IMG/VR virus record: IMGVR_UViG_3300043449_000929
Coordinates: 95 to 64,094 of that record
DNA length: 64,000 nucleotides
Direction: 5' to 3' (one strand)
DNA from: a virus
Taxonomy: Duplodnaviria; Caudoviricetes
Numbering within the stretch: the stretch's first letter is position 1; each line of letters starts with the position of its first letter. The position numbers and the translations under genes are program-made. This document shows positions 6,725 through 60,824 of this stretch, in pieces. The notes under the pieces are model-generated. The model ran no database searches. It worked only from the letters and a program-made list of their open reading frames with translations, and had not been told where the DNA came from.

Positions 6725-6730
6725 GGGCTA

Positions 6731-7267: not shown

Positions 7268-7268
7268 T

Positions 7269-8324: not shown

Positions 8325-8421
8325 TTACAAGTCCTGCTCGCCACAGTGACGCACTTGGCTGCATAGCGCGCGACATCGCACCCACTCGATAACAGCGCCA
8401 GACATACGATCAAAATAAGCT

Positions 8422-8664
8422 TCACGGCGTTTCCTCCTCATCCTTGTGGCGGATACCGGCCACACGATCTATGAGCTTGAGAGTGATCTGAAGAACGAGC
8501 CAGACGCAGCCGAGGACAGGCGCCCACTGGGCGGCTATGTCATGCGCGTAAGGAAGCCATATCGGGGAGATGATCGCTCCAGTGGCGATTGCGGCAGTCA
8601 CCTTCTCCGAGGCAGTCTCGAACAGGTATCCGCCCACATCTTGCAGGTTATGCTGCGGTTGCAT
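8422..8664 (-). CDS. Putative holin
   Basis: Small, two hydrophobic segments, charged C-terminus, adjacent to spanins and endolysin. Confidence 0.55.
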   Translation of the reverse strand: MQPQHNLQDVGGYLFETASEKVTAAIATGAIISPIWLPYAHDIAAQWAPVLGCVWLVLQITLKLIDRVAGIRHKDEEETP

Positions 8665-8665
8665 C

Positions 8666-8926
8666 TCATCTGGCCCCATACGCTGCGCGGACTTCCGCAT
8701 AGAATTTCTGGCAGTTGCCCACGGCGAGGGCGTTAAGAATCGACGCCTTCCGGTTCTCCAGAGCGAATACAGGGAGCGGCTTCCCCTGAACGACTGGCGG
8801 CAGAGGATACTTCTTGCAGGACGCGGCAATCGGCGGCAGGAGCGGCCTAGTGTCGTCCAGCCCTATCGAGGCGTTGCACCCTGCGAGCGTAATCGCCATC
8901 AACAACGCAGCCGCCATCCTTCGCAT
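8666..8926 (-). CDS. Putative o-spanin (Rz1-like lipoprotein)
   Basis: Signal peptide with LAGC lipobox, Pro-rich, overlaps i-spanin. Confidence 0.75.
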   Translation of the reverse strand: MRRMAAALLMAITLAGCNASIGLDDTRPLLPPIAASCKKYPLPPVVQGKPLPVFALENRKASILNALAVGNCQKFYAEVRAAYGAR

Positions 8927-9242
8927 GACCATCGCCCCTCTTAACAACACGCATCTTCAGTGACTCAATTTCCTGCTGCATGGCGTCAGCCGCCTGCACA
9001 GCTTCGTCAGCGCGCTTCATGTCAGCGATGGCAATGGCTTCAGCAGCCTTCTGCTGACGCGCCAACTCCGCAGCGTGCGCCTTAACCATCTCGGCTCTGT
9101 AGACAGCCTCCCGCTCGTCGCAGGCGAGCGAAGCCTTGTGGTGTCCGTATCCATAGGAAAGGAGAATGGCGATCATCAGAACGCCCACCTGAGAGGTGGC
9201 GAATGACCAGAGACCTGATATGATTGGAAGAAGAGCAGGCAT
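8847..9242 (-). CDS. Putative i-spanin (Rz-like)
   Basis: N-terminal TM segment, Ala-rich coiled coil, C-terminal Cys, follows endolysin. Confidence 0.75.
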   Translation of the reverse strand: MPALLPIISGLWSFATSQVGVLMIAILLSYGYGHHKASLACDEREAVYRAEMVKAHAAELARQQKAAEAIAIADMKRADEAVQAADAMQQEIESLKMRVVKRGDGHAKDGGCVVDGDYARRVQRLDRAGRH

Positions 9243-27965: not shown

Positions 27966-29293
27966 TTAAGCGGTGGCGAGAACTTCCAAACGAGCCATCC
28001 AGGCATCGTTCAGAATGACGGTCGTGGTGTAGAGCTTCCAACCAACGGTGCCGCGCTGAGCCAGCGGATCGCCAGCAGCAGGCTTCGGATTCACAACCAT
28101 CGGCGTCATGCTCGACTTGCCCTTCAGCGGGACAATGCCAAAGGCATCGCGACCGAAGACAAGGATCGGGTAAACGTCTGGATAGCTGGAAGCCGTCGAA
28201 CGGTAGGTCGTGGTAGACGCGCCACCCGAAGTCGCCGCGTCCGTAAACGGAGCGATGATCGTCGAAGTGAGGAAGCGGATCTGTTCGACCGAACCGATCT
28301 CACCGGGAAGCGGCGATGTATGCGGGCCGTAATCCGCAACCGCCTTGAAGCCCGCGAGCGAACGAATGTCCGTTTCGAGGTCAGGGTGGCAAACCGCAAA
28401 GTAAGCACGCTCGACAGACTTCGTGTTGTAGTCAGCGGAAGAACCGATGACCTGCGAAATCTTCTGCGCGTTCTGACGGTTCAGGCCAGTCGCAACACGG
28501 CGAAGGTCAGCAAGCGACAGAGCAGAAGCAAGCAACTGACGGTTTGCAACCTTGTTCGCGTAGAAGACGTTGGTACCCGCCTTCAGCACATTATATCTGA
28601 GCGTCTCTACTGTAGACGCAGCGGATTCACCGAGAACATCAGTGGCCTGCTCAAGCACCGAGTCGGTGTGAGTGTCCATGATGACATCAGTGATGGTGAT
28701 GTAGTCACCATACTGAGCGACAGTCGCCGTGTAGTCCTGATTGGCGAGCTTGTTGCCAACAGGGGTCACGCCTTCAACCAGCGGGGTCGTCGCCAGCGGG
28801 ATGAAGAACGGGTTAGACGCCGAGCCGGAACCAGCAGAGCCGGTCGCGCCGCTAAGGAAATAGCGACGGAACTTGGCAGTCTGAGTGCTGTTGGTCGGGA
28901 GCGGATACGCCTGACCGAATTGCTCAAGCTGAAGGAGGGGCAAACCGCGCTTCAGCATTTTCACAACGGACCCTTACATCTTCACCATTGGTCGCTAATC
29001 AATGATCGCTTCTGTTATGAAGCTGCTGCGTGTTTCCACGCAGAAGAGACTATATCTTCACCCTCTTTCGAGGGGCTGGGAGCTTCGGACCGCTTGGCCC
29101 TACGAGTCGCTACACTCTAGTCGTTACACCTTACTGCATACGCAGTCTTGGCTCGGTATTGCCCTCGTCATTACACGTTAGGGTGTTCACCGACTTCACC
29201 CAGTCACACTACGCGATTGCTCGCGCACGGCCCCAGTCAGATTAAGGCAGCAACCGCAGGCGAAATATCGCCGTAAGCGGTAATCTGAGCCAT
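27966..29293 (-). CDS. Major capsid protein, N4-gp56 family; spliced join(29293..29245, 28972..27966)
   Basis: Exon 1 MAQITAYGDISPAVAA with GGAG RBS; exon 2 has KFRRY, PLVEGVTP, QYGD, GEIGSVE, DPLAQRGTVGWK, ILNDAWMARLEV. Confidence 0.92.
28973..29244 (-). ncRNA. Group I intron (272 nt, no ORF, IA-like)
   Basis: Exon ends in U, intron ends in G; P7 GACUA/UAGUC with GAAGAUAUAGUC; P2, P8, P9 GNRA-capped hairpins; removal restores capsid frame. Confidence 0.92.
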
Positions 29294-29398: not shown

Positions 29399-30253
29399 TC
29401 AAATAGGCTTGTGCGAGAACCTAATATCTACAGGCGCGATGAGATCTTCGCCGCGCTTGCCCGCGCGATAGCGGTTTTTAACTAGGTGATAAGATAGGCC
29501 GTATTTATCTGCGATTTGGTGGCGATTAATAAACTCGCCTCTGATCTCAATCCTCTCGGCGTGCTGCTCGAAATAAGCCTTCTTACCCCGGCTAATCCCG
29601 ACTGACCGCTTAGCCATAACGTCTGGCCGCTTAGCCAACTCTGCGCTAATGATCCGGCGCTTCTCCCTGAGAGCGGGGTCGCGCATGGCCCGCGCGTGGT
29701 TATTCCTGCGCCGTGCTTCAATCTCCTTGTCGGCGCGCATTGCGTCTAATTGCTCAATGCGCTTTGCATAGACTTCAGGCTCACTTAGCTTCGCCTTCAA
29801 CGCCTCACTGTGGCGACGCTTTGAAGCACCAACTAACGGCGCGACGCAGTAACCGCCAAGATTAAGATTCGCAAGAGTGCCACCCTCATCAGTTATTCCG
29901 TAATGCTCAATCAGATGCTTCTCTAACGACAGGGCCTCGTCATTAGTCAGGCTCTCAATGATCTTGAATATCGGAAGATTGCCGTGCTTTTCGTAATCGG
30001 CGGCAAGAATGAAATTGGTATGTTTTCCGCCAGCAGCAGAATGCTTTCGAATACGTCTCCCGCTTCCCTTCCCTACGTATCTGGGTGTGCCGTCAGGCAA
30101 TAGGATTAGGTAGACGTAGCATCTACGCTCGGACTCAGTGCTTAATGAAACACAACGCAAAAACCGCTCGGCCTCGAACTTAGCAGTTCGCAGCGTTTCA
30201 GCGATCTTGTCTTCGGGGGATTGTGAGTCTAAGTAGTCTTCAGCCATCTTCAT
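29399..30253 (-). CDS. Free-standing GIY-YIG-family endonuclease
   Basis: YVYLI...PRYVGKGSGRR...H...EA..LE..LI...LAN; C-terminal IRGE...QIADKYG...G..GEDLIAP module like that of 25758-26588. Confidence 0.85.
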   Translation of the reverse strand: MKMAEDYLDSQSPEDKIAETLRTAKFEAERFLRCVSLSTESERRCYVYLILLPDGTPRYVGKGSGRRIRKHSAAGGKHTNFILAADYEKHGNLPIFKIIESLTNDEALSLEKHLIEHYGITDEGGTLANLNLGGYCVAPLVGASKRRHSEALKAKLSEPEVYAKRIEQLDAMRADKEIEARRRNNHARAMRDPALREKRRIISAELAKRPDVMAKRSVGISRGKKAYFEQHAERIEIRGEFINRHQIADKYGLSYHLVKNRYRAGKRGEDLIAPVDIRFSHKPI

Positions 30254-40318: not shown

Positions 40319-40765
40319 ATGTCAATTATCGGCACCGAGTTGGATGACTTGGACCCCGCCACCGACCGCCCGGCCCCGGCAGATGACACACTCACGCCGC
40401 TCGACGTCAGGCTTCGCACCGTTCTTGACGCCATCCCGCTGGCAACGAGGCGCGAGGGATTGACCTTGGAGGCGCTACAGGCCCGGCTGAAGGGGCGACG
40501 CAAGGCGCGTTGTCATCCCGGCGAGCTAGGAGCGGCGCTTGTGAAACTCGGATATGAGCGAAAGAGAGATTGGCGAGTCGGCGCTAGTTATCTCGCGCGC
40601 TGGTATCCGCCCGGCTATGGACCGCAAGGCCGGGAAATGTCGCACCGTGTCATCCGGCGACTGAGATACGAACGCCCCGATTTATTCCCGACCTACGGCG
40701 AGCGATCCAAGCAGGACATGAGAGAGGCGCGCAGACAGGCCGCGCGCGAGCTAGGTCTGATCTAG
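40319..40765 (+). CDS. Hypothetical DNA-binding protein (winged-helix-like)
   Basis: GAGG RBS; LGAALVKLGYERKR. Confidence 0.55.
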   Translation: MSIIGTELDDLDPATDRPAPADDTLTPLDVRLRTVLDAIPLATRREGLTLEALQARLKGRRKARCHPGELGAALVKLGYERKRDWRVGASYLARWYPPGYGPQGREMSHRVIRRLRYERPDLFPTYGERSKQDMREARRQAARELGLI

Positions 40766-41112
40766 CCCGCTTCATTCCACCGCGCCCCGATCTCATCGAG
40801 CGCCCGGCGCACGGCGCACAGTTCGCCCAGCGTCCGAGGATAGCGACCCTGGCCCTCTATCACGGCGCGCTCAAGCGGCCCGAGATACGGAGCTAGGAGA
40901 CGATAGCGCCGGATCACCACCCGCTCAAAGGCGTCCAGCCGGGCCGTGGAGAGGCGACGCGCGTTCCCGGCGTCATTATCCCACCCGTCCGCATAAGAGC
41001 CACTGACGAGCCGTCTATAGGCTCCCGAGAGCGCCGCCCACTTTCGCGCCGTGGCGAACTGCTCGACCGTGATTCGACCGCCCGCCGCCAGCTTTGACAA
41101 TACGCACCGCAT
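40762..41112 (-). CDS. Hypothetical protein
   Basis: GGAGG upstream; L...GRIT..QF..A..W motif. Confidence 0.55.
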   Translation of the reverse strand: MRCVLSKLAAGGRITVEQFATARKWAALSGAYRRLVSGSYADGWDNDAGNARRLSTARLDAFERVVIRRYRLLAPYLGPLERAVIEGQGRYPRTLGELCAVRRALDEIGARWNEAG

Positions 41113-41200
41113 GACAGAAGACCCTCCCGAGACGCCGCGCAGATAGCGTCCAACCAGCTAGGGCTTCGCGTCAAATACGGCTGACCGTGGAGAGCCGTCT

Positions 41201-41515
41201 AATTCTTTCCATTCTTTCCAGCACCCCTACATACATCGAAAAAGATATGGTTAAGCTCAAGTGTATTTTGGAGCTAAACACTTTTGTGCGGAAAGAATGG
41301 AAAGAATGATTTTGAGAGAGAGAGAAAGAATAATAAAAAAATATATATATATAAATACAACTACTTACTACGCCTTACCCCTGTCTATAACGCTTAAGGT
41401 CAAGCGCCATTCTTTCCATTGGAAAGAATTTGGAAAGAAGGAAAGAATTAACCGCAAGCTTTGCATTTATGCGTTCTTTCCCACGGAAAGAATGTCTCCG
41501 GGAAGGAAAGAATAG
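41201..41515. repeat. Iteron-like GGAAAGAA cluster around AT-rich core; candidate replication origin
   Basis: About 11 copies in both orientations flanking taataaaaaaatatatatatataaata. Confidence 0.65.
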
Positions 41516-41626
41516 AGGCGTTGGCGCACTAGACCGCCCGCACAATCTCCCGCCCACATAGCACCCACCCTGCCACGCCTCGCACCGCCCGCGACACTTT
41601 GTCGCACATAAATCTAACTAGCTATA

Positions 41627-41655
41627 TTGACTAGTGAGAAAGGCGGGACTATAAC
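41627..41655 (+). promoter_or_regulatory. sigma70-type early promoter
   Basis: TTGACT-N17-TATAAC directly upstream of the small-gene operon. Confidence 0.8.
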
Positions 41656-41702
41656 TAGTTTTGTTGGACGTTACAGCGTCCCGCACAAAGGAGAGAGAGA
41701 CA

Positions 41703-41981
41703 ATGCGTGACGCTTTCCACTTTTACGCTGATCCCGGCCATGGCTGGCTTCGCGTGACTGAAGACGACCTGGCAGACGTTGGCCTGACCGCCGACAGCTT
41801 CAGCCGTTACAGCTACGTGAACGGCCCGCGCTTCTACCTTGAAGAAGACTGCGACGCCGGTGTGTTCCTCGACGCTTACACCGCCAAGCGTGGCGCGGCC
41901 CCCGTCATTTTTGAACACCACTCAAATGGCGACAGCCTGATCCCCACCTATACGCGCCTTCCTGGCGCAAACCGCACCTAA
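41703..41981 (+). CDS. Early hypothetical protein
   Basis: AGGAGAGAGA RBS; DPGHGWL...YLEEDCDA motif. Confidence 0.8.
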   Translation: MRDAFHFYADPGHGWLRVTEDDLADVGLTADSFSRYSYVNGPRFYLEEDCDAGVFLDAYTAKRGAAPVIFEHHSNGDSLIPTYTRLPGANRT

Positions 41982-41982
41982 A

Positions 41983-42036
41983 GGCCGAAACGGGGGTCCG
42001 CCCCCGTCTTCCCGTGACGCGGGAACTGACGAGGCC
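41983..42036 (+). ncRNA. Hammerhead ribozyme, type II
   Basis: GGCC-GAAA-stem III(CGGGGG/CCCCCG)-UC-stem I(UUCCCG/CGGGAA)-CUGACGA-GGCC; GUC cleavage triplet 42006-42008. Confidence 0.92.
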
Positions 42037-42081
42037 AGCCGTTACAGCGGCGCACCGAGCAGAAAACAGGAGAGAGAGACC

Positions 42082-42975
42082 ATGGCAAAGAGAGACCTAC
42101 ACGCCGAAATCACCGCCCGTATTGTGGCGTTGCTCGACGCTGGCACGATCCCGTGGCGCAAGCCCTGGAGCGAGACCAACACCGGCTTTGGCGCCATGCC
42201 GCGCAACGCCGTGACGCGCCGCGCCTACTCCGGCGCGAATGTCGTTCTGTTGTGGGCTACGGCCCAGGAACGCGGCTATGAACAGCCCCGGTGGGCGACG
42301 TTCAAGCAGATCGCAGAAGCGGGCGGCAACGTCCGCAAGGGCGAGAAGTCAACGCCGGTTATCTATACGAGCAGCATCGAGAAGACCGACGAGGAGACCG
42401 GCAAGCTTCGCCGCATCGCCTTTCTCAAATCCTTCAACGTCTTCAACATCGCGCAGTGTGACAACGTGGACGCTCTACAGGAAGAACGCGCGCCGCGCAT
42501 TATCAACCCCGGCCAGCGCGACGAGATCGCGGAAGGCTTCATCGCCTCGACCGGCGCGGAAGTCAGGCACGGCGAGGCGCGCGCCTACTACACGACAGCG
42601 GGAGACTATATCAACCTCCCGATGTTCGAGAGCTTCACCAGCGCGCCGGAATACTACAGCACCGCCTTTCACGAGCTGACCCACTGGACCGGCGCATCGC
42701 ACCGGCTCAACCGGGAATTTGGCAAGCGCTTTGGCGATCATTCCTACGCCGCCGAGGAACTTGTCGCGGAACTTGGCTCAGCGTTCGTTTGCGCCGAGTT
42801 CGGTCTGGACAACCACACCTTGGACAATTCCGCAGCCTACATTGCGTCATGGAAAAAGCGCCTCACGGAGAACGATAAGTTGTTTGTCGCCGCCGCCTCC
42901 CACGCATCCAAGGCCGTTGACTTCATGCGCGGCCTCGCTCTTGAGGCCGACACAGAGGAGCCAATCGCAGCATGA
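42082..42975 (+). CDS. ardC: ArdC-family antirestriction / ssDNA-binding protein with zincin-like domain
   Basis: PWRKPW, YSGAN, WATFKQ, VRKGEK, FNVFNIAQ, HELTHWTG, YAAEELVAE. Confidence 0.92.
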   Translation: MAKRDLHAEITARIVALLDAGTIPWRKPWSETNTGFGAMPRNAVTRRAYSGANVVLLWATAQERGYEQPRWATFKQIAEAGGNVRKGEKSTPVIYTSSIEKTDEETGKLRRIAFLKSFNVFNIAQCDNVDALQEERAPRIINPGQRDEIAEGFIASTGAEVRHGEARAYYTTAGDYINLPMFESFTSAPEYYSTAFHELTHWTGASHRLNREFGKRFGDHSYAAEELVAELGSAFVCAEFGLDNHTLDNSAAYIASWKKRLTENDKLFVAAASHASKAVDFMRGLALEADTEEPIAA

Positions 42976-43059
42976 CGTTTGCCTTTTGGGGGCGGGACCG
43001 AACATCCCGCCGCCCAATGGGGAACCGTTACAGCGGGACCACAGAAGGAGAGAGAGACC

Positions 43060-43482
43060 ATGGGACTCGATATGTATCTAAACGGAAGGCTTTCTATCAT
43101 TCCGAAACGGGACGACAGCGAGCAAAAAATCGACGGGAAGCGAGTCAAGGAAATAACCGTTGAGTTAGGATACTGGCACAAACATCCCGATTTGCATGGA
43201 TATATCGTCAACACTTTCGCGGGCGGGGATGACAATTGCCAAGCAATCCGCCTCGACCGGGAAGACGTTGAAAAGATCATATCCGCCATCGAGAACGACG
43301 ACTTAGCCCACGGGACGGAAGGATTTTTTTTCGGGAAATCCTACCAACCCGGCGAAACAAACGAATACGGATCATACGAAGATCAGAAAAAGGACGATCT
43401 AGAAATCTTCAAATCAGCCATCGAATGGTTGAAAAATGAAGACGATAAAAACTGGCGCGATATTGAATACGAAGCCAGTTAG
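43060..43482 (+). CDS. Early hypothetical protein (MGLDMYL family)
   Basis: MGLDMYL...ELGYWHKHPDLHG...GFFFG; strong RBS. Confidence 0.85.
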   Translation: MGLDMYLNGRLSIIPKRDDSEQKIDGKRVKEITVELGYWHKHPDLHGYIVNTFAGGDDNCQAIRLDREDVEKIISAIENDDLAHGTEGFFFGKSYQPGETNEYGSYEDQKKDDLEIFKSAIEWLKNEDDKNWRDIEYEAS

Positions 43483-43574
43483 TGAGCCTCACACCCTGCC
43501 CATCAGCAACGGTGGGCAGACTGGGAAGCTTACAGGCAACCCCCGCTTTACAGAGCGGAGACAGGAGAGAGAAC

Positions 43575-43670
43575 ATGCAATCGACCTTGCTTATCATGGA
43601 AGCGACCGCCGCCGCCATCCTGACGACCGTTTACGCGCAGCCGGTGGTTGCGTGGCTTATCGCGAAGTAA
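43575..43670 (+). CDS. Small hydrophobic peptide (31 aa)
   Basis: Preceded by TTACAG hairpin and AGGAGAGAG. Confidence 0.55.
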   Translation: MQSTLLIMEATAAAILTTVYAQPVVAWLIAK

Positions 43671-43680
43671 GGGGCCGACG

Positions 43681-43863
43681 ATGTATTACACCTACAGCAG
43701 GCACCGCAGCAGGGACGCCGCCGAGTCCGCACTGGAGGAGTATTTCGCGACCGGAGAAGTCAGCGACGGAGAATGGCCGCGCATTAAATATGAGCGAAGC
43801 CGTGGTTGGTTAGTCCAGTTCTACGACTGGACATATCCGACCTTTGAAGCGCCGACACGCTGA
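43681..43863 (+). CDS. Early hypothetical protein
   Basis: AAGGGG upstream; 60 aa. Confidence 0.6.
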   Translation: MYYTYSRHRSRDAAESALEEYFATGEVSDGEWPRIKYERSRGWLVQFYDWTYPTFEAPTR

Positions 43864-43951
43864 GCCTCACGCCGGGGGCGGGTGACGCCGCCCCCCACGG
43901 GAAGCTTAGGCGACCTGCCGTCTTACAGGACGGTCACACAGGAGAGAGAAC

Positions 43952-44134
43952 ATGCGCAAACAGAAGAACACGACCCGCAAGGCCAAGAACGCCGCCAATA
44001 TGGAATCGACCCATTGGGACTTTTTCCTATACAGCGGCGAATGGTTTGCCCGCCTTTCATTCCCCGACGCTAAGACAGTCCGCAAGCTGTTTCCTGGCGC
44101 CAAGGTGGAAGGGCAAAGTGTTTATTTAGCCTGA
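43952..44134 (+). CDS. Early hypothetical protein
   Basis: Hairpin + AGGAGAGAG RBS. Confidence 0.7.
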   Translation: MRKQKNTTRKAKNAANMESTHWDFFLYSGEWFARLSFPDAKTVRKLFPGAKVEGQSVYLA

Positions 44135-44218
44135 CCCTTTCGGCATAGGGACGGACGCCCGCCCCTATCGCGAAGCGGTCAGCTTCCCGCGTTACAGCGC
44201 GGAATATAGGAGAGAGAG

Positions 44219-44563
44219 ATGATAAACTGCAAGGTTCAAGCAAACGGCGATTTGCTAGTCACAGCCGACAACGAGGCGCGCAACTATATCCGCGAGCATA
44301 TCGAACGCGGCTATTGGACGACGTTTTATGAATTGTTCGAGCCATTCTTTACGAATGGTTCCTATGAGCCGTTCGACGCCGGGAACGCTGATCCTTTTGT
44401 CGGGCTTACAAGCGCACCGTGCATCGCTGAGGCTATCTGTCATCCAGACGAAGGCCCCCGCAAAGTGGATGGCCGTCTATGGTGGTTTCCGAACTACATG
44501 GTTTGCGACCCGCTGGACGAGCTAAAGAATAAGGGCCGCACCGTCTTTGCGCTTGCGGAATAA
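44219..44563 (+). CDS. Early hypothetical protein
   Basis: Hairpin + AGGAGAGAGAG RBS. Confidence 0.8.
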   Translation: MINCKVQANGDLLVTADNEARNYIREHIERGYWTTFYELFEPFFTNGSYEPFDAGNADPFVGLTSAPCIAEAICHPDEGPRKVDGRLWWFPNYMVCDPLDELKNKGRTVFALAE

Positions 44564-44611
44564 CCCCAGCCTATTCCCGCGTTACAGCGCGGAATAAAGG
44601 AGAGAGAAGCC

Positions 44612-44893
44612 ATGAGCGAGCAAATAAACTTTAAGCGCTTCCACAATTTCGAGGCGCGCTACCATCGCAACGGCATTTGCGGCGTTGGGTTCTACGCTTG
44701 CAAATTCCTGTATGTTGACGAGCGAGGACGCGCCATCGACGAAATCATAGCCGCCTACTTTCCCAAAGATGGAGAGACAGCAGAATATTATGCGGTAATG
44801 TCCGATGATATTGGATGCAGATGGCGCGGCGATCATTTCGTTGACGACCTACGCGACGCAATAGAAACCTACGGCGCTTTGGCCCACGCCTGA
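44612..44893 (+). CDS. Early hypothetical protein
   Basis: Hairpin + RBS; YHRNGICGVGF...WRGDHF motif. Confidence 0.8.
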   Translation: MSEQINFKRFHNFEARYHRNGICGVGFYACKFLYVDERGRAIDEIIAAYFPKDGETAEYYAVMSDDIGCRWRGDHFVDDLRDAIETYGALAHA

Positions 44894-44974
44894 CCCCAGC
44901 CTATAGAGCGTCAGTCCCGGCTGGCGCTTTATGGGAAGCGGTTACAGCCGTTTCGTTAGAAGGAGTAGAGAGCA

Positions 44975-45259
44975 ATGAGAAAGATCAGAATAACGGCCAA
45001 GTTCGAGAACAGCCCGCAAACGCTTGGATGGATTGCATGGGTTACGGGGGATGAATACGGGCCGCACTATCTAGGCAACACGCACACTTCTTTTTGTGAA
45101 GCTATAGAAACAGCGGCACGAGTCATTATGTCGCAGAACCCAATGGCACGAATTTCGAGCTATGATCCAACGCCCGCGCAAATGAAAAAAGCAGCGCGCG
45201 CCGTCGCATGGCAAAACGATCAATCGTTTTTTACCCATGACTGGGTGAAAATTCAGTAA
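44975..45259 (+). CDS. Early hypothetical protein
   Basis: Hairpin + AAGGAG RBS. Confidence 0.75.
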   Translation: MRKIRITAKFENSPQTLGWIAWVTGDEYGPHYLGNTHTSFCEAIETAARVIMSQNPMARISSYDPTPAQMKKAARAVAWQNDQSFFTHDWVKIQ

Positions 45260-45271
45260 GGAGCCACGCCA

Positions 45272-45487
45272 ATGCGTAAACTTATAACCGCCGCCGCCTT
45301 CCTGGCCGCGACCGCTGCTAACGCCGGTTACTTATATGAGCCGCCGCAGATCAGCCCATACGAGCGGAACCAGCGCCAAATGCAGCAACAGCTCGACGAC
45401 ATACAAAGGATGCAGCAGCTCCAAATCATGCGGCAGCAGGAACAGCTAGAGCAGCAGCGCCGGGATATGATGCTTTTTGGACGCTAA
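45272..45487 (+). CDS. Small secreted Gln-rich protein
   Basis: Signal peptide MRKLITAAAFLAATAANA; AAGGAG RBS. Confidence 0.7.
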   Translation: MRKLITAAAFLAATAANAGYLYEPPQISPYERNQRQMQQQLDDIQRMQQLQIMRQQEQLEQQRRDMMLFGR

Positions 45488-45494
45488 ACAAACC

Positions 45495-45527
45495 GCCCCC
45501 GGCAGTTACAGCTACCGGGGGCTTTTT
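45495..45527 (+). terminator. Rho-independent terminator whose loop is TTACAG
   Basis: GCCCCCGGCAG-TTACAG-CTACCGGGGGC-TTTTT. Confidence 0.8.
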
Positions 45528-45583
45528 CAGCGCACGCAGACGGAGAGAGAGACTCGAAATCCGCGCGGCCAGGATGCTATATC

Positions 45584-45784
45584 ATGACAATGAGCCTAGA
45601 AGCCAAGGAATATATGCGGCGCAGCCGGGACAAACGCCAAGCCCAAGGCGGGAAGCAAGTCGCCGTTATGCTTACACCGGAAGAAAACGCCGCCCTTGAA
45701 AAACTCAAGTCAAAGCTAGGGTTAAACGCCCGCGACTCTATCGGCAAGGCGCTACTGGACGCCGCCCGTCGCGTTAAAATCTGA
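45584..45784 (+). CDS. Small basic DNA-binding protein (ribbon-helix-helix-like)
   Basis: GGKQVAVMLTPEE..AL..LK pattern. Confidence 0.65.
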   Translation: MTMSLEAKEYMRRSRDKRQAQGGKQVAVMLTPEENAALEKLKSKLGLNARDSIGKALLDAARRVKI

Positions 45785-45830
45785 ACAAGCCCAGGCCCAG
45801 CTCGTTTCGTCCCGGCCAGCCAAAAAACAG

Positions 45831-45874
45831 ACCGCCCCGTGTTCGCCCTCACATGCGCGCGGGGCGGTTTTTTT
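45831..45874. terminator. Probable bidirectional terminator between convergent units
   Basis: ACCGCCCCG...CGGGGCGGT followed by T run, A run upstream. Confidence 0.7.
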
Positions 45875-46058
45875 ATTCCGCGCGTTTTCCAATCACCGCA
45901 TAAAGATGGTCTATCTCGGAATAGTATTCCTCAATAACCTCCTCTGCCCGCGCCAAATTGATCTGCGCGTCCCTCGCGCGCCGCGCCTGTTCTACGTGAT
46001 CGTAGCGGTTATCGTGCAGCTTCTTCCAGATCGCAGTCTCGACTTCAACAGTTCCCAT
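45873..46058 (-). CDS. Hypothetical protein
   Basis: 61-aa helical ORF at end of replication operon. Confidence 0.5.
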   Translation of the reverse strand: MGTVEVETAIWKKLHDNRYDHVEQARRARDAQINLARAEEVIEEYYSEIDHLYAVIGKRAE

Positions 46059-46247
46059 CGCAGCCCCCTACCGCACTCTCGACAAATCTTCTCGGACGCA
46101 CGCCACGCGAACGCCATCAAAGATGGCTATTATCAATCCGCTGCAAATTGACTCGACAAAGCCGCAATCGCCATTGCGGAACCGACCGAATATCGTGCAG
46201 CGTTTCAATCTCACCCTATCCCCAACATTTAGCCTCACGCCAAACTC

Positions 46248-48620
46248 CTATTTTAGAAACGTGTAAGACACAGCCTTGCGGCCAACGTGCTTGCTGTCTT
46301 CGCCTACCAGCTCCTCTATCCGCTCGGATTCTTTCAGCGCAGACAAAACCTCTTCAAGTCTCCGAGACGGGAGACGAACACTCCGAATAAGACTCGCGCG
46401 CGTGGCTCGTTTATTCCGCTTCAAAAACCCGAGAACCTTATTGACCTCGCCCTCCCAGGACGAATCCGAAATCTTATCCTCTGAACTGACGACCATGCTA
46501 TCGACGCAGGAAAAGACAAACTCTTCCGCCCAAGCGAGATCCGTTACGGTCACGGCTGGCTTGCGCCAATCAATCCCGATGGCACGAATGGTTGCAACCT
46601 TAATCGTATTCTCGGCGGCGCGGGCGTAGAGCGGACTTATGTCGTCCCGCATTTTGTCAGCACGATCTTCTATGTCTATCCAAGCCAGCTTCGCTTCGTC
46701 GTCTGCAAATGGGACAAACTCAGGCGGCGCTGTTACCGGCGTGACGCCATCACCATGAAACGGAGCGGAGGTAAGACCGTCTCGGTGATAAACACCCCGG
46801 CAAGCTTCAATCAGGTCAGCAGGAACATCACTCGCAAAGCTTTCTGGTTGCAGCTTTGCTGGTTTGTCGTCGCTTTTGATAATGATGAAGCGATTAAGAA
46901 GACCATTTGTTATCTCCGACGCAGACAGCCGTGAATATAGTTCGTCCTCTGTTGCTACGCCGAAAATAATTAGGTGCGGCCAATAAATTCGCGCAGCCTG
47001 CCGTGCGGCGGATTCTGAAGAAGTGAATATCCTGAACGACGCCGACCACAGTGAGCGATTGGTTGACGACAGCCCGGTTTCGTAAGAAGCCGCGTTCCGG
47101 CTTGACCCCTTACCCATGAAGTTAGCGATCTCATCCATGCAGCAAATGAGATTAGGCTGGCGGGATAAGGCGCTGGTTATTGATACGTCAGACTTAAATT
47201 CTGACGGGCCAAGATGGTTCTCTAGACCGCAAGCGCGAACGACTTCGGCAATGCAGTCAAGAGGGTGCTGCTTCCCGTATCCGGTTGGGCAGCAGCAAAT
47301 CATATAAAGAGCAGTTGATGATCCAGTTGGGCCGCGATACTGGCGTCCCGCGAGCAACCCTACCGTAGCGATGGCCGCAGCCATAGCAAACATTGGCTGT
47401 TGACGGCGCGCAGTATGGTTGCCATGCGCGGCAAGCATACCGAGCAGCCCAGGCGCCTGAGTTATATCCATGAGTGACTTATTCGGGCGAGGCGCGATCT
47501 CCGCTTTGACGGGCGGCAGTTCGATAGGCGCGGCAGGCGCAGGCTCGGCTTCGACCGAATCTTGCTCAAGGCGATTAAGCTGCGACAGATCGACCTTCAC
47601 GTAGCCTTGCAAAATATCGGACAGGTATCGGAAGGCTTCGCCAGAGGTGAGACGACGCGCGCGGGCGACGAGATCAATCGGGCTATATCCCTTATCACCG
47701 TCTCCGAAATCGACGATGGTATGGCGATGGACGTTGATCTTCAGATTGCGTTCACGGTCAGCGTCGGCCTTCCCGGTTCCAGACTGCGACCAGACACCAA
47801 CAGCCTCAAAACCAGACGAGGTTCTGCGCAGCTTGAACAGGTTCAGCGCCAGAATCCATTTCTCAGGCTGAGACCATGCTTCTTCGTTGAGCTGGCGGTA
47901 AGGGTGACTGTCATCGAAGTTCTGAAAACGCGGGTCGCCAGCTTTTGCTGCTTTGTCCAAAGCATAAGAGTGCGGCATCGCGTCAGGGTTATAGCCGTGT
48001 TCGCGCAGGACGTTGGACAGAATCTCGAACGTGTTCTCCGGCAGCTCAGGAAGATCGCTCGGCTCTATCTCATCGAGGGCGTAGTTCCCGGTCCAGACAT
48101 AAGGAACGCCAGTCTTAGGATGTATCGACGGCGGCAAAACAGTCTGCTTTCCTTCACCGAGAACATCGACCAGACGCACGATCCGACCGTCAGGCTTTGT
48201 CCCGTTGAAGAAAGATGAAACGACTGTCTTTGAGCGGAAAAAGAATGTCGCGCCTTTCTGGCCGCGCTTGACGACATCAGTGTAAGGCAGCGCGCGACGA
48301 ACATCATCAACGGCGTCGTCATCGTCAACGTCTATTGCGACGACATACTGAGACGCGCGACCAAGGACGAGACAGATACCGCCGTCTGGTTTCTCCGACC
48401 AAGAATTAACCTGCCATGTTGACGGCATGTTAGTGGCGTAGCGTGAAGTCCAGCTTGTCATGGGCCTCCATTCACCGGAGTGATAGTCGGCTGGTATCTT
48501 GTCTCCAGGCATACACGGAATAACGCAGAAGCCATGCTCGATTAGCTTCTTGCCATAAACACCATAGGGGGAAGTCAAGGCGCATCTCTCCCGCACGAAC
48601 AAATCCAAATCATCAGGCAA
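46248..48620 (-). CDS. Bifunctional primase/polymerase fused to DUF3987-type helicase
   Basis: VIP..PGDK.P, AIDVD, TVLPPSIHP; Walker A PTGYGKQ, DE, GLLNRF; start approximate. Confidence 0.85.
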   Translation of the reverse strand: MPDDLDLFVRERCALTSPYGVYGKKLIEHGFCVIPCMPGDKIPADYHSGEWRPMTSWTSRYATNMPSTWQVNSWSEKPDGGICLVLGRASQYVVAIDVDDDDAVDDVRRALPYTDVVKRGQKGATFFFRSKTVVSSFFNGTKPDGRIVRLVDVLGEGKQTVLPPSIHPKTGVPYVWTGNYALDEIEPSDLPELPENTFEILSNVLREHGYNPDAMPHSYALDKAAKAGDPRFQNFDDSHPYRQLNEEAWSQPEKWILALNLFKLRRTSSGFEAVGVWSQSGTGKADADRERNLKINVHRHTIVDFGDGDKGYSPIDLVARARRLTSGEAFRYLSDILQGYVKVDLSQLNRLEQDSVEAEPAPAAPIELPPVKAEIAPRPNKSLMDITQAPGLLGMLAAHGNHTARRQQPMFAMAAAIATVGLLAGRQYRGPTGSSTALYMICCCPTGYGKQHPLDCIAEVVRACGLENHLGPSEFKSDVSITSALSRQPNLICCMDEIANFMGKGSSRNAASYETGLSSTNRSLWSASFRIFTSSESAARQAARIYWPHLIIFGVATEDELYSRLSASEITNGLLNRFIIIKSDDKPAKLQPESFASDVPADLIEACRGVYHRDGLTSAPFHGDGVTPVTAPPEFVPFADDEAKLAWIDIEDRADKMRDDISPLYARAAENTIKVATIRAIGIDWRKPAVTVTDLAWAEEFVFSCVDSMVVSSEDKISDSSWEGEVNKVLGFLKRNKRATRASLIRSVRLPSRRLEEVLSALKESERIEELVGEDSKHVGRKAVSYTFLK

Positions 48621-58940: not shown

Positions 58941-59264
58941 GTGATGATCGGCGGCGTTGACAGGATCAAGGCCAACGATGCGGCGCGCATGTTAGGCGTA
59001 TCACCGCGACACGTTAAAGACTTAGCAGCTTCCGGCGAATTGCCGGGAGCAGCAAAGATAGGAGCGATCTGGACCTTCAACCCCGAAAAACTCAGAACTT
59101 ACATCGAAGAGAGAGAAAGAGAATGTCAGACAACCCCAACAAAAACCTCTTCAAGAGGGGCGAAATCTGGTGGCTGGAGGTCAGAATCCAAGGCCACAAG
59201 ATCAAAGAAAGCCTTGCAACGAATGAAGTCTCTGTTGCTAGAAAGCGCCGCGACAAACGCATAG
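58941..59264 (+). CDS. Excisionase-like HTH protein
   Basis: AARMLGVS...LA..GELPGA.KIG..W.F; overlaps integrase start. Confidence 0.8.
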   Translation: MMIGGVDRIKANDAARMLGVSPRHVKDLAASGELPGAAKIGAIWTFNPEKLRTYIEERERECQTTPTKTSSRGAKSGGWRSESKATRSKKALQRMKSLLLESAATNA

Positions 59265-60208
59265 AAGAATTGCAGCAGTCGGGCGGCGAGAAGTTGGCGT
59301 GGGGCGACGTTACTGACAAGTGGTTCGCTTCTTTCATTACGAAGAAGGGTCGCTCGCAGGCAACGGCTTCCCGCTATTACGTCAGTCTGAAACAGGTTGA
59401 GCCGATACTGGCGAAATACAACGTCGATAAGATCGACGGGCGTGTCATCCTCGCCATGATCGAGGCGCGGAAGAAAGCTGGCGTCAGTGAGTCAACAATT
59501 CGGCGCGACCTGACAGCCGTTTCCGCCGTCCTTAAATTCGCGGAAGATCGGAACTGGCGCGAAGGTAATCCAGCCGTATCGAAGCGCCGTCTACTCGATG
59601 AGAACAACGAGCCGATTGTCCTGCCCACCGAGGAGGAGATCCAATCTGTTCTTGTGGCATGTCCCTCGCGCTTTGGAGCGATGGTTCGCGCAGCACGCTA
59701 TACAGGGTGCCGACAGGGAGAACTTGTCACCGCTCGCTGGGATCAGTTCAACGAGGTTCGCCGCACCCTGACCGTGATCGGCAAGCGCAACAAGCGCCGC
59801 ACGATTGATCTGAGCAAAGAAGCTTTGGCTCTTATCCGCTCCCACCCCCGCGTCCCAAACTCGCCGCTGATCTTCTGTCGTGACGATGGCGGTTCGTTCA
59901 TGCAGGCGGCGTCAGACTTCACGCATTTCCGCCGTGAGGCGAACAAGGGTCGTAAGCACAAGATCGTCTTCCGCTTCCACGACCTGCGCCACCTCTATGC
60001 GGTCGAGTCTCTGCATTCTGGCATGTCGATCTACGTCCTTCAGAAGCATCTGGGACACACGACGATCCGCATGACTGAAAGATACCTGGAGCATCTTTCG
60101 CCGGAAGAGCAGGACAACGCCCGTCGCGGAACGATCATGGACGCATTTGGCGCTATCGGCGCAGACGCCGCCCCACAATCTTCCCAACACACGATAGGAA
60201 GTAATTGA
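59123..60208 (+). CDS. int: Tyrosine integrase
   Basis: TGCRQGE, K, FHDLRH, LGH, ERY catalytic residues. Confidence 0.95.
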   Translation: MSDNPNKNLFKRGEIWWLEVRIQGHKIKESLATNEVSVARKRRDKRIEELQQSGGEKLAWGDVTDKWFASFITKKGRSQATASRYYVSLKQVEPILAKYNVDKIDGRVILAMIEARKKAGVSESTIRRDLTAVSAVLKFAEDRNWREGNPAVSKRRLLDENNEPIVLPTEEEIQSVLVACPSRFGAMVRAARYTGCRQGELVTARWDQFNEVRRTLTVIGKRNKRRTIDLSKEALALIRSHPRVPNSPLIFCRDDGGSFMQAASDFTHFRREANKGRKHKIVFRFHDLRHLYAVESLHSGMSIYVLQKHLGHTTIRMTERYLEHLSPEEQDNARRGTIMDAFGAIGADAAPQSSQHTIGSN

Positions 60209-60209
60209 T

Positions 60210-60824
60210 ATGATTGTAGAAATCGACGATTGGCTGGGTCTTGAAAACCGCCAGGGCGGTAGCCCCGCTCTCGAGGGTTCGACTCCCTCCCCTTCCTCCA
60301 AGTGTCTGAAATCAAACGCTTTTTTTGCTTGTAAAGCAGACAAAAAACGTCTTGATGTAGAAGGCACAACTGGCACAAAAGGCGCACAAAACGCCCCACA
60401 CGCCCCACAAAAACGCCCCACAGTAAGGCGGGAAAAAACACGTGCGTTTCGCCGTTTGTTCAGCCGCGAAACGACACGCGCGTTACCTATACCTGAACTG
60501 TCTCCAGAGTTTTCCACAAAATTTTGGGAGCGTGTTTCTGCCGGATCAAACAGCGACTGTTGGAACTGGACGGGAGCAACGTCTTCCTTCGGCTACGGCA
60601 GGGTCAAAATTGGGGGGCGTCTCTACTCCACCCACAGGATTGCCTACACCTTCTCCAACGGCACCATCCTGAATCTTTCCGAGTATCACGGCGCTGTCGT
60701 TAGGCATTCCTGTGACAATCCGGCTTGCTGCAACCCAGCACACCTTTGCATTGGCGACCAGCGGGCAAATGTTCACGACATGGTTGCTCGCGGTCGCCAC
60801 TCGAATGGTGGAGGCGCGGTATGA
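60210..60824 (+). CDS. HNH endonuclease (true start probably downstream of attP)
   Basis: FWERV, CWNWTG, GYG, HRIAY, VRHSCDNPACCNPAHL. Confidence 0.8.
   Translation: MIVEIDDWLGLENRQGGSPALEGSTPSPSSKCLKSNAFFACKADKKRLDVEGTTGTKGAQNAPHAPQKRPTVRREKTRAFRRLFSRETTRALPIPELSPEFSTKFWERVSAGSNSDCWNWTGATSSFGYGRVKIGGRLYSTHRIAYTFSNGTILNLSEYHGAVVRHSCDNPACCNPAHLCIGDQRANVHDMVARGRHSNGGGAV
60237..60300 (+). other. attP: 3' half of tRNA-Ser(UGA)
   Basis: GGTCTTGAAAACC anticodon arm, long variable arm, GAGGG-TTCGACT-CCCTC T arm, CCA end; no D arm or 5' acceptor strand; about 30 nt after int. Confidence 0.85.

What the first reader, a model, noticed from the sequence alone, without database searches (positions are those of the whole stretch)
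42973..44947. Long hairpins anchored on the upstream stop codon occupy the slot held by the hammerhead in other spacers
Seen: five spacers begin with TGA plus 2 nt that pair with a distal segment ending TYA and enclose a long imperfect stem: TGACG..CGTTA (42973-43030), TGAGC..GCTTA (43483-43532 and 43861-43908), TGACC..GGTCA (44132-44181), TGACC..GGTTA (44891-44944). Four have GAAGC and one GAAC just before the closing strand. Two share TGAGCCTCAC...GGGAAGCTTA, and 44561 (TAACCCCAGCCTAT) looks like a deleted copy of 44891. In two cases the closing strand overlaps the TTACAG hairpin, so the folds are mutually exclusive. Spacer grammar: [stop]-[structured element]-[TTACAG hairpin]-[RBS]. Inference, two options: (a) processing sites (RNase III-like as in the T7 early region, or an unrecognised ribozyme) interchangeable with the hammerhead, giving each gene its own mRNA; (b) attC-like ssDNA recombination sites bounding exchangeable cassettes, although GTTACAG does not fit the integron GTTRRRY core and no IntI is present.
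Basis: partly seen in the sequence, partly recalled or inferred. Interest (0 to 1): 0.75.

Follow-up and report, generated by a model that had tools for sequence, protein, structure and literature searches.

The report
Stop-anchored hairpins between phage early genes
Five long RNA hairpins that each start on the stop codon of a small early phage gene are real and conserved, sit where a hammerhead ribozyme sits in one neighbouring spacer, and most likely mark points where one long phage transcript is cut or insulated into single-gene messages.

Summary
All five stretches fold into single long imperfect hairpins (dG -23.8 to -32.6 kcal/mol, z -2.7 to -5.1). The first paired bases are the TGA.

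The window is a complete 64-kb phage. The hairpins lie only in a promoter-led array of small + strand genes that includes ArdC.

A syntenic relative (L290/L207/L308) has six homologous hairpins between unrelated genes. The 11 align with strong covariation: 91.6% of cells paired against 72.8% when shuffled, and 12 of 14 pairs with double changes. At least 11 more occur in ArdC-related phage contigs.

The TGA always pairs with the 5' part of a downstream short hairpin whose loop is lineage-specific: TTACAG, GTCCAG or GCCAG. Loop I of the single type II hammerhead can pair with that same segment.

Upstream of ArdC, two phages carry a hammerhead and a third carries a stop-anchored hairpin.

No Rfam family, IntI, attC core, promoter or U-tract fits.

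Best reading (0.45): RNase III-type processing and insulator hairpins, whose cleavage releases a standard 5' hairpin-plus-SD leader. As repeats they also serve as recombination joints for gene cassettes. No RNA data exist, so cleavage is inferred.

The parts
41627..41655 (+). sigma70-like promoter candidate TTGACT-17 nt-TATAAC. The first TTACAG hairpin starts 11 nt after the -10 hexamer, so it would sit at the 5' end of the primary transcript.
   Evidence: Read. One search did not flag it because its rule needs T at -10 position 6; it flags an overlapping candidate at 41599-41628 instead. One search found no promoter-like site inside any spacer.
41666..41681 (+). short hairpin 1, GGACG-TTACAG-CGTCC, 8 nt before the SD of gene 41703-41981
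41983..42044 (+). Type II hammerhead filling the slot between the TAA (41979-41981) and short hairpin 2. Predicted cleavage is after C42008. Loop I UGACG (42015-42019) can pair with CGUUA (42040-42044).
   Evidence: Rfam Hammerhead_II 36.1 bits (gathering 37), E 9e-5 in 5 kb and 2.8e-7. Core letters and pseudoknot were read. The pseudoknot rule is from PMC3088659.
42038..42051 (+). short hairpin 2, GCCG-TTACAG-CGGC
42082..42975 (+). ArdC-like anti-restriction gene, the cassette between the hammerhead and long hairpin W1
   Evidence: Pfam ArdcN 5.7e-40 and MPTase-PolyVal 1.7e-44; phrog_7245 1.4e-90
42973..43030 (+). Long hairpin W1. UGACG pairs with CGUUA, which belongs to short hairpin 3.
   Evidence: model R1 45.7 bits
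43025..43036 (+). short hairpin 3, CCG-TTACAG-CGG, mutually exclusive with the base of W1
43483..43532 (+). Long hairpin W2. Its TGA is a second in-frame stop after TAG 43480-43482.
   Evidence: R1 36.5 bits
43543..43558 (+). short hairpin 4, CCGCT-TTACAG-AGCGG, free of W2
43861..43908 (+). Long hairpin W3; 92% identical over 39 nt to element R4 of L290
   Evidence: R1 51.4 bits
43917..43934 (+). short hairpin 5, GCCGTC-TTACAG-GACGGT
44132..44181 (+). Long hairpin W4. Its 3' strand is also the 5' arm of a degenerate short hairpin GAAGC-GGTCA-GCTTC.
   Evidence: R1 49.6 bits; homologous 3' part in L135
44187..44202 (+). short hairpin 6, CCGCG-TTACAG-CGCGG
44561..44611 (+). Spacer without a long hairpin. 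It is a chimera of the first 14 nt of W5 and the short-hairpin/SD part of the 44184-44217 spacer; it includes short hairpin 7 at 44577-44592.
44891..44944 (+). Long hairpin W5, with 5 G-U pairs. Only the + strand folds significantly.
   Evidence: + strand z -5.09, - strand z -0.66; R1 43.3 bits
44935..44954 (+). Short hairpin 8, GAAGCGG-TTACAG-CCGTTTC. It competes with the base of W5 and wins in the full-spacer minimum-energy fold.
45495..45527 (+). Terminator-like hairpin with a TTACAG loop followed by a T run, at the end of the array
   Evidence: Read. One search lists the same stem only on the - strand.

Best explanation
The five elements belong to a family of cis-acting RNA hairpins. They mark the 3' boundary of each cistron in a host-transcribed polycistronic early operon.

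Each is about 50 nt long. It has a lower stem of roughly 10 bp that begins on the UGA, a 2x2 or 3x3 internal loop, and a GC-rich upper stem of roughly 9 bp. That is the size and layout I recall for phage T7 RNase III processing signals.

Proposed mechanism (inferred). Host RNase III cuts the hairpin, or in one spacer the type II hammerhead cuts itself. The upstream message keeps a protective 3' hairpin. The 3' strand of the lower stem is released and refolds into the short conserved-loop hairpin. Every downstream message therefore starts with the same leader as the primary transcript: short hairpin, 8-21 nt, strong SD. The effect is context-independent expression of whatever small gene sits in the cassette.

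Because the spacers are repeated and conserved, they also act as homology for recombination that swaps, deletes and duplicates cassettes.

Shown: the fold, its conservation and covariation, stop-codon anchoring, pairing with the short hairpin, restriction to the early array, the shared slot with hammerheads, and cassette turnover at the spacers.

Inferred: that the RNA is cut, by which enzyme, and the effect on stability or translation.
For: 1. Significant folds for 5 of 5 elements.
2. Eleven elements from two syntenic phages align. 91.6% of cells are paired against 72.8% in shuffles (0 of 500 shuffles reach it), 12 of 14 pairs show double changes, and slid controls give 43-51%.
3. Model R1 finds only these 11 in 82,332 bases of window plus L308. 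The next best hit outside these loci scores 13.8 bits.
4. Sixteen elements folded singly are one hairpin of 46-59 nt with 15-22 bp whose base starts on the U or G of the UGA, or in one case (R4) on its A. Further members are in L129, L128 and L321.
5. TGA accompanies the long hairpin in 11 of 11 cases, against 1 of 8 spacers without one in window plus L290. Fisher p = 1.6e-4, or 1.2e-3 if the 43483 case is counted against (sequences).
6. Slot equivalence. The hammerhead fills stop-to-short-hairpin exactly. L137 has a Hammerhead_II match of 29.7 bits just upstream of its ArdC. L129 has a TGA-anchored hairpin there.
7. Hammerhead loop I and the base of W1 use the same pentamer pairing, UGACG:CGUUA, with the short hairpin. 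Type II hammerheads need such a pseudoknot (PMC3088659).
8. The first short hairpin follows a sigma70-like promoter in the window and in both L290 operons. One search found no promoter-like site in any spacer.
9. PMC3088659 reports multiple hammerheads flanking single genes, including the anti-restriction gene ardA, in prophage operons, and proposes processing into single-gene mRNAs.
Against: - No RNA evidence of any kind; no RNA run was listed.
- RNase III cleavage cannot be predicted from sequence.
- Three of five elements fold at least as well on the - strand. Strand specificity therefore rests on W5, on the G-U pair in the UGA:UUA closure, and on the absence of - strand genes.
- The slot can be empty (spacers at 43668, 44561 and 45257). 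More distant relatives (L238, L240) have short hairpins but no long ones. The hairpin is therefore not required by every gene.
- In about half of the elements a free short hairpin follows, so release by cleavage is not always needed.
- The conserved loop of the short hairpin is not explained by this model.
- The phage encodes no RNase III, so a host enzyme must be assumed and the host is unknown.
Confidence: 0.45

Rival explanations
1. Passive structural insulator. The hairpin is not cut. It blocks 3' exonucleases after decay from downstream, keeps the roughly 90-nt untranslated spacer folded so that Rho cannot load, and stops the spacer from pairing with neighbouring coding sequence.
For: The hairpins are stable and GC-rich and lie immediately after the stop. 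There is no conserved unpaired nucleotide that would suggest a specific enzyme. Hairpins of varied register follow ArdC in 8 of 9 ArdC loci inspected.
Against: It does not explain why a self-cleaving hammerhead occupies the same slot. It does not explain why the base always includes the stop codon and the 5' part of the short hairpin.
Confidence: 0.2
2. Translation-sensing switch. The stop codon is paired with the loop and 5' arm of the short hairpin. A ribosome terminating on UGA melts the lower stem, and the short hairpin can then form. That hairpin would be a recognition site for an unknown factor or for the ribosome. Expression of the next gene would thus be coupled to translation of the previous one.
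For: The stop pairs with loop nucleotides in every lineage although the loop differs: UGA:UUA in the window, GAC:GUC in L290, UG:CA in L129/L132. There is a TGA bias. The folds are mutually exclusive where the only short hairpin overlaps: W1, W5, R3, Lf1, Lf2, L132c and the L129 copies. The 5' strand of the lower stem, counted from the U of the UGA to the upper stem, is 13 nt in W1-W4, Lf1, Lf2 and L132a and 9-15 nt overall (my count on the folds). I recall that this is about what a terminating ribosome covers.
Against: In W2, W3, W4, R1, R2, R4, L132a, L132b and L129-4866 a free short hairpin follows, so nothing is masked. The SD itself is never sequestered. It does not explain the hammerhead.
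Confidence: 0.15
3. Primarily DNA-level recombination sites (attC-like or PeSL-like) that bound exchangeable cassettes.
For: Window and L290 are syntenic on both flanks, but array genes differ while spacers are homologous. The 44561 spacer is a chimera of two others. In contigs of run X1, 11 of 14 joint ends lie in spacers or at their edges, and 4 of 5 boundaries between the listed high-depth pieces lie in spacers (the run may be the source sample, and the tool warns that joints at 85% likeness come from other organisms or repeats). PeSLs of T4-type phages show the same logic (PMC2839356).
Against: There is no integron integrase and no GTTRRRY/RYYYAAC cores. There is no promoter in the spacers, unlike PeSLs. 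G-U pairs (26 in the 16 folds) and the + strand-only fold of W5 point to RNA. Any repeated regulatory spacer would give the same mosaic pattern by homologous recombination, without being selected for it.
Confidence: 0.08
4. Transcription attenuators or pause hairpins that grade expression along the array.
For: They are GC-rich stem-loops with G runs followed by C runs directly after stop codons, as described for the terminator part of PeSLs.
Against: None of the five is followed by a T run, whereas the hairpin that ends the array is. There is no promoter to restart transcription.
Confidence: 0.06
5. An undescribed self-cleaving ribozyme class that replaces the hammerhead.
For: It shares the slot with a hammerhead. 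Ribozyme classes are known to share gene neighbourhoods (recalled; PMC6765202 passages state only that the function of such ribozymes is open).
Against: No Rfam ribozyme family matches at E <= 10 in 5 kb. Internal loops and apical loops vary freely. Across 16 aligned elements only the A of TGA and one C are invariant. The fold is a plain hairpin with no junction or pseudoknot.
Confidence: 0.04

Closest known systems
RNase III processing signals of the phage T7 early region (recalled from Dunn and Studier 1983 and later work; no paper read here)
   Same: Hairpins of about two helical turns with an internal loop, placed between the cistrons of one host-made early transcript. They would yield single-gene mRNAs that keep a 3' hairpin.
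   Different: Cleavage is untested here. The stems are anchored on the stop codon and on a downstream conserved-loop hairpin. The elements are repeated, homologous and move with cassettes. One slot holds a hammerhead.
Hammerhead ribozymes flanking single genes in prophage operons (Perreault et al. 2011, PMC3088659; passages seen)
   Same: Same slot and same kind of cargo: small phage genes and an anti-restriction gene. The window's own spacer 1 is such a type II hammerhead with the loop I / 3' tail pseudoknot.
   Different: The five elements are plain hairpins with none of the catalytic core. They cannot be members.
PeSL promoter-early stem-loop cassettes of T4-type phages (PMC2839356, abstract and section 14 read; PMC4122927, listing only)
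   Same: Repeated intergenic modules that run from the stop codon through a G-run/C-run stem-loop to the SD and start codon. They flank small ORFan genes in a hypervariable region and mediate modular shuffling.
   Different: PeSLs contain a strong sigma70 promoter in every module and their stem-loop terminates transcription. Here no spacer has a promoter-like site and no T run follows the stems.
Integron attC sites (features recalled)
   Same: Imperfect hairpins with conserved ends and a variable centre at the 3' end of promoterless cassettes in one orientation.
   Different: No IntI and no R''/R' core sequences. Each spacer carries its own SD leader. The pairing pattern favours RNA.
SAS/ESAS motifs of Cluster K mycobacteriophages (PMC3203893; passages)
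   Same: A conserved start-associated sequence that includes the SD, preceded in about half the cases by an imperfect inverted repeat with a variable spacer. It occurs upstream of a subset of genes, and its function is unknown.
   Different: Different sequence and hosts. ESAS repeats are conserved in sequence rather than covarying, and no link to the upstream stop codon or to ribozymes was described in the passages seen.
RiboJ-type synthetic insulators (recalled: hammerhead plus a hairpin upstream of the SD)
   Same: The order ribozyme, hairpin, SD in spacer 1 is the same design. The proposed effect, a standard 5' leader independent of context, is the same.
   Different: RiboJ is a synthetic part. 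The natural array mostly uses hairpins in place of the ribozyme.

Membership tests
Hammerhead ribozyme, type II (applies to 41983-42044 only) | Catalytic core CUGANGA ... GAAA with A15.1-U16.1 and an H17 cleavage nucleotide; three stems with stem II open | tested here: met
   Core and stems are aligned over model positions 1-66. Letters were checked: CUGACGA 42026-42032, GAAA 41987-41990, C17 = 42008.
Hammerhead ribozyme, type II (applies to 41983-42044 only) | Rfam gathering score | tested here: not met
   36.1 bits against a gathering score of 37. It is just below, with E 2.8e-7 for the genome.
Hammerhead ribozyme, type II (applies to 41983-42044 only) | Pseudoknot of four or more pairs between loop I and the nucleotides just 3' of stem II (PMC3088659) | tested here: met
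   UGACG 42015-42019 pairs with CGUUA 42040-42044, giving 5 pairs including one G-U. Read; the rule is.
Hammerhead ribozyme, type II (applies to 41983-42044 only) | Self-cleavage | not testable with these tools
   Needs in vitro transcription.
Any described self-cleaving ribozyme or other Rfam family (the five long hairpins) | Match to the covariance model | tested here: not met
   No family overlaps the five elements at E <= 10 in a 5-kb search, at the gathering score, or at E <= 1 over 64 kb.
RNase III processing signal (T7 type) | About 20 bp of mostly double-stranded RNA in two segments separated by an internal loop | tested here: met
   15-22 bp in 46-59 nt. The lower stem is about 10 bp with 1x1 mismatches, followed by a 2x2 or 3x3 loop and an upper stem of 8-12 bp. 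The criterion itself is recalled.
RNase III processing signal (T7 type) | Position between cistrons of one transcript | tested here: met
   There is one promoter-like region upstream and none in the spacers. A terminator-like hairpin sits at the end of the array. That this is one transcript is inferred.
RNase III processing signal (T7 type) | Cleavage by RNase III | not testable with these tools
   No RNA data. No phage-encoded RNase III.
Integron attC | Integron integrase IntI in the element | tested here: not met
   The only tyrosine recombinase (59123-60208) scores 35.6 bits on TIGR02249, whose cut-off is 265.
Integron attC | Core sites RYYYAAC ... GTTRRRY at the two ends | tested here: not met
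   The ends are TGASS ... SSTYA. GTTACAG misses two of the four RRRY positions, and no inverse core is present at the 5' end. The consensus is recalled.
Integron attC | Imperfect hairpin after each promoterless cassette, same orientation | tested here: met
PeSL | sigma70-type promoter inside each intergenic module | tested here: not met
   Only 1 promoter-like site was found in 41000-46300, upstream of the array, and none in the spacers.
PeSL | Repeated stem-loop modules at which gene content differs between close relatives | tested here: met
   Window against L290: 4 of 5 short DNA matches lie in spacers while the genes between them are unrelated.
Intrinsic terminator | T run directly after the stem | tested here: not met
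   None of the five was flagged. The letters after the stems were read.
Bacterial SECIS / UGA recoding signal | Reading frame stays open beyond the UGA | tested here: not met
   The frame is open only after 42973, where it runs in frame into gene 43060 (ORF 42979-43482). At 44132 and 44891 an in-frame TAG follows, and at 43861 the next gene is out of frame.

The most novel reading that the evidence does not exclude
The stop-anchored hairpin and the conserved-loop hairpin together form a two-state RNA device that is specific to the phage lineage. In one form, a terminating ribosome flips it. In another form, a dedicated nuclease or RNA-binding protein reads the NCAG loop. Either way it is functionally interchangeable with a type II hammerhead, whose own pseudoknot has been adapted to the same loop. 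That would make it a new kind of cistron-boundary element. It would also give the first natural system in which the job of a bacterial or phage hammerhead can be defined by swapping it for a non-catalytic equivalent.
Probability: 0.15. Interest if true: 0.8.

Novelty: new variant of a known kind. Interest (0 to 1): 0.55.

Why it matters
What hammerhead and other small self-cleaving ribozymes do in bacteria and phages is still open. The 2019 review PMC6765202 says that further work is needed to define their purpose.

Here the slot in front of homologous ArdC genes holds a hammerhead in two phages and a plain conserved hairpin in a third. Within one operon, five hairpins and one hammerhead hold equivalent positions. 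That gives a direct swap experiment: if hairpin and hammerhead can replace each other, the ribozyme's role is cistron separation or insulation.

The array also shows how phages may keep newly acquired small genes, including anti-defence genes, expressible. A portable boundary module supplies the stop context, a 3' hairpin, a standard 5' leader and a strong SD, and its repeats double as recombination joints.

If the hairpins turn out to be ordinary stabilisers, the result is a well-documented but ordinary phage operon feature.

Tried and rejected
Searches for relatives that gave little.
- The primase as a single protein gave nothing in IMG/VR.
- The conserved 116-aa neighbour gene found only the same relative contig in IMG/VR and nothing in genome contigs.
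- The 18-letter pattern of the W1-type 5' arm gave 20 stretches, of which only the L290 contig was real.
Only 5 hits in 3 loci of already known contig groups had the hairpin upstream.
- Model R1 found nothing convincing in 79 terminase-related loci. The best hit was 20.8 bits, E 0.063.
- Two of my scripts that looked for recurrent loop words were too noisy to use as statistics. One search did point to the lineage-specific palindromes examined.

Alignment. The 16-sequence MAFFT alignment (A4) lost the register of the 3' ends, so RNAalifold dropped the basal helix. The covariation figures therefore rest on the 11-sequence alignment A3. A3 comes from only two phages, so related copies may inflate them.

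RNA evidence. No RNA holder was listed for the array. The single DNA run may be the source sample and is kept as contigs, so neither excised circles nor RNA ends could be looked for.

Ideas considered and dropped.
- N4-like hairpin promoters. The 2059-aa protein has no PDB or Pfam match, the hairpin follows a sigma70-like promoter, and the loops are 6 nt.
- lambda-type nut sites, because there is one hairpin per gene rather than one per operon.
- SECIS-like recoding (see the membership table).
- IS200/IS605-type TTAC cleavage, because the motif is absent from the L290 loop.

Literature. None listed a stop-anchored hairpin family or a hairpin replacing a hammerhead. These word searches are narrow, and the subscription literature is not covered. 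Figures S1-S5 of PMC3088659 (tandem hammerhead arrangements, pseudoknot statistics) and Fig. S4 of PMC3203893 may bear on the comparisons and were not seen.

Full report
Setting. The window is nearly all of a 64,094-base virus record with direct terminal repeats, rated complete. It encodes a large terminase, a head-tail adaptor, a primase and a helicase, and a tyrosine integrase. The closest cultured relative by terminase is only 47% identical.

Between two blocks of - strand genes lies a + strand island, 41.6-45.8 kb. It holds ten small genes. Only one of them has a recognisable function, an ArdC-like anti-restriction protein at 42082-42975.

A sigma70-like promoter candidate, TTGACT-17-TATAAC at 41627-41655, precedes the island. 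The consensus scan flags an overlapping candidate at 41599-41628 and finds no promoter-like site in any spacer. The island ends in a hairpin followed by a T run.

Observation. The outermost helix is always TGA plus two bases paired with NNTYA.

In whole-spacer folds the closure is kept in four of five. At 44891 the competing TTACAG hairpin wins.

Eight short hairpins with loop TTACAG and six different, fully compensated stems occur only at 41666-44954 on the + strand. Each lies 8-21 nt before a GGAGAGAGA-type SD.

Stop-anchored hairpins of dG <= -20 are rare elsewhere in the genome: 5 of 89 crude ORFs of >= 70 aa, 3 of them in the array. The enrichment has p = 9e-5.

Small corrections:
- There is one hammerhead, not several.
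- The TGA at 43483 is a second in-frame stop after TAG.
- The 44561 spacer is a chimera of two other spacers.

A conserved family. A contig with an 83% identical terminase (L207, also fetched as L290 and L308) is syntenic with the window on both sides of the array, but carries different array genes. It has two divergent operons with the same spacer grammar. Six long hairpins there are homologous to the window's.

The 11 elements align. RNAalifold predicts the hairpin, with 11 of 13 pairs showing compensatory changes.

For a 14-pair structure, 91.6% of cells are paired against 72.8% in column shuffles (0 of 500 reach it). Twelve pairs have double changes. Sliding the partner by 1-3 columns drops pairing to 43-51%. 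The 11 sequences come from two phages, so relatedness inflates these figures somewhat.

A covariance model built on them finds the 11 and nothing else in 82 kb of window plus L308, and nothing convincing in 79 terminase-related loci.

In 80 ArdC-related loci it finds further copies in L140, L135, L137 and L130-L134. Inspection added L129 (five copies), L132 (three), L128 and L321. That makes at least 22 elements in seven contig groups.

Sixteen folded individually are single hairpins of 46-59 nt with 15-22 bp. The lower stem is about 10 bp with 1x1 mismatches, followed by a 2x2 or 3x3 internal loop and a GC-rich upper stem. In the L129/L132 subfamily the base is nearly constant, while the apical stem differs in every copy yet always pairs.

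The stop codon is part of the structure. Every long hairpin starts on TGA. In window plus L290 this is 11 of 11, against 1 TGA among 8 spacers without a long hairpin (p = 1.6e-4, or 1.2e-3 on a conservative count).

The partner of the stop codon is always the 5' part of the short hairpin motif, although that motif differs by lineage:
- UGA:UUA of UUACAG in the window.
- GAC:GUC of GUCCAG in L290.
- UG:CA of GCCAG in L129 and L132.

Where only one short hairpin is present, the two folds exclude each other. In roughly half of the spacers a second, free short hairpin follows and the overlapped copy looks degenerate.

The first short hairpin of each operon follows a sigma70-like promoter by a few bases, in the window and in both L290 operons. 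The primary transcript would therefore begin with it.

The hammerhead. Spacer 1 holds a type II hammerhead at 41983-42036 with a complete core. It scores 36.1 bits, one bit under Rfam's threshold, and fills the space from one base after the TAA to one base before short hairpin 2.

Its loop I, UGACG, can form five pairs with CGUUA in the 5' arm and loop of that short hairpin. This is the loop I / 3' tail pseudoknot that Perreault et al. found necessary for fast cleavage in type II hammerheads (PMC3088659). It is the very pentamer pair that closes long hairpin W1.

So the hammerhead and the hairpins engage the same downstream segment.

A second contig, L137, has a Hammerhead_II match directly upstream of its ArdC gene (29.7 bits, below threshold, core present). 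L129 has a TGA-anchored long hairpin in that position. The TGA there closes only a 31-codon ORF of uncertain reality.

This is comparative support for interchangeability. It rests on three lineages.

Cassette turnover. Sensitive DNA comparison of the two arrays gives five short matches. Four are in spacers and one 17-nt match lies inside ArdC. The three self-matches within the window's array are all spacer to spacer.

Contigs of the one DNA run that holds the window were also laid. That run may be its source sample, and the contigs were laid at 85% likeness, where the tool warns that joints come from other organisms or repeats. They show seven joints. Eleven of their 14 ends lie in spacers or at their edges. 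Four of five boundaries between the listed high-depth pieces lie in spacers. One loose end reads exactly like the L290 relative.

I take this as weak support that related phages in that sample share spacers but not genes.

Known families tested. No Rfam family matches the long hairpins, and relatives show no ribozyme at the gathering score. There is no T run after the stems and no promoter in the spacers. There is no integron integrase and no phage RNase III. The frame beyond the UGA is open only at 42973.

Mechanism. The best-supported reading is an RNA-level cistron boundary. The size and layout match what I recall of T7 RNase III signals. A self-cleaving RNA holds the same slot. Cutting would free the 3' strand of the lower stem to form the short hairpin, so each downstream message would carry the same leader as the primary transcript. 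This design parallels the synthetic ribozyme-plus-hairpin insulators.

I put this at 0.45 because nothing shows that the RNA is cut.

The main rivals are:
- an uncut stabiliser or insulator (0.20);
- a translation-sensing switch that unmasks the short hairpin when a ribosome terminates (0.15);
- DNA-level recombination sites (0.08);
- attenuators (0.06);
- a new ribozyme (0.04).

The conserved, lineage-specific loop of the short hairpin is explained by none of them. It suggests an unidentified factor.

More distant terminase relatives carry their own conserved hairpins or palindromes before early-gene SDs, but no long hairpins. The short hairpin is therefore the older and more general part of the grammar.

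Novelty and verdict. Hairpins and hammerheads between phage genes are known kinds. PeSLs show that repeated intergenic modules shuffle genes.

Three things are new as far as my five word searches reach:
- a covarying hairpin family locked onto the stop codon and onto a downstream conserved-loop hairpin;
- its alternation with type II hammerheads in equivalent slots;
- the hammerhead's pseudoknot using the same segment.

I file it as a new variant of a known kind, with interest 0.55.

Noticed in passing
window 29026-29254 (-), with ORFs 29399-30253 (-) and 27966-28964 (-): A group I intron match (62.1 bits, E 2.3e-13) lies between a GIY-YIG endonuclease ORF and an ORF matching a phage capsid family. 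This may be an intron with a homing endonuclease in or next to the major capsid gene.
   Followed up: partly
window 42973-43062: ArdC and the next gene (43060-43482) are in the same frame, with no stop between them other than the hairpin-anchored TGA (ORF 42979-43482). Read-through would fuse them. The other four spacers do not allow this.
   Followed up: partly
L286, L238, L240, L262/L263 (- strand of the loci): Terminase-related phage contigs each carry their own conserved hairpin or palindrome 10-25 nt before early-gene SDs. L286 has 9 copies with a GTTAAC centre, L238 has 7 copies of a 9-bp palindrome, L240 has 10 copies and L262 has 7. Some follow sigma70-like promoters.
   Followed up: partly
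window 41202-41307: 18-nt inverted repeat arms about 70 nt apart, seen as spurious microRNA matches. They lie between the divergent 116-aa gene (40762-41112) and the array promoter. ACTAG-containing repeats also surround the promoter at 41615-41662. They may be operators.
   Followed up: no
window 45495-45552: The array ends in a TTACAG-loop hairpin with a T run. It is followed by an orphan GGAGAGAGAGA with no start codon at the usual distance, possibly a decayed cassette leader.
   Followed up: no
window 59123-60208 and 60243-60314: A tyrosine integrase is followed by a weak tRNA-like match (Tymo_tRNA-like, 25.7 bits, below threshold). This may be an attachment site with a tRNA fragment, which would make the phage temperate.
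   Followed up: no
window 17408-23587 (-): A 2059-aa ORF whose C-terminal 630 residues match the ends of two roughly 2,900-3,400-position PHROG profiles of unknown function. It has no Pfam or PDB sequence match.
   Followed up: partly
L308 14744-14840 (-): SAM-I/IV riboswitch aptamer match above the gathering score (46.6 against 41.1 bits) in the related phage contig.
   Followed up: no
L135 1438-1507 (-): DUF3800-IX RNA match (61.3 bits, gathering 36.8) in an ArdC-related phage contig.
   Followed up: no
L137 5947-6000 and repeats at 4965-9194: A conserved SD context (CGAAAGGTA, 7-8 copies). In front of ArdC it can pair with an upstream CCUUUG and so sequester the SD. This is a different leader design next to a hammerhead.
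   Followed up: no
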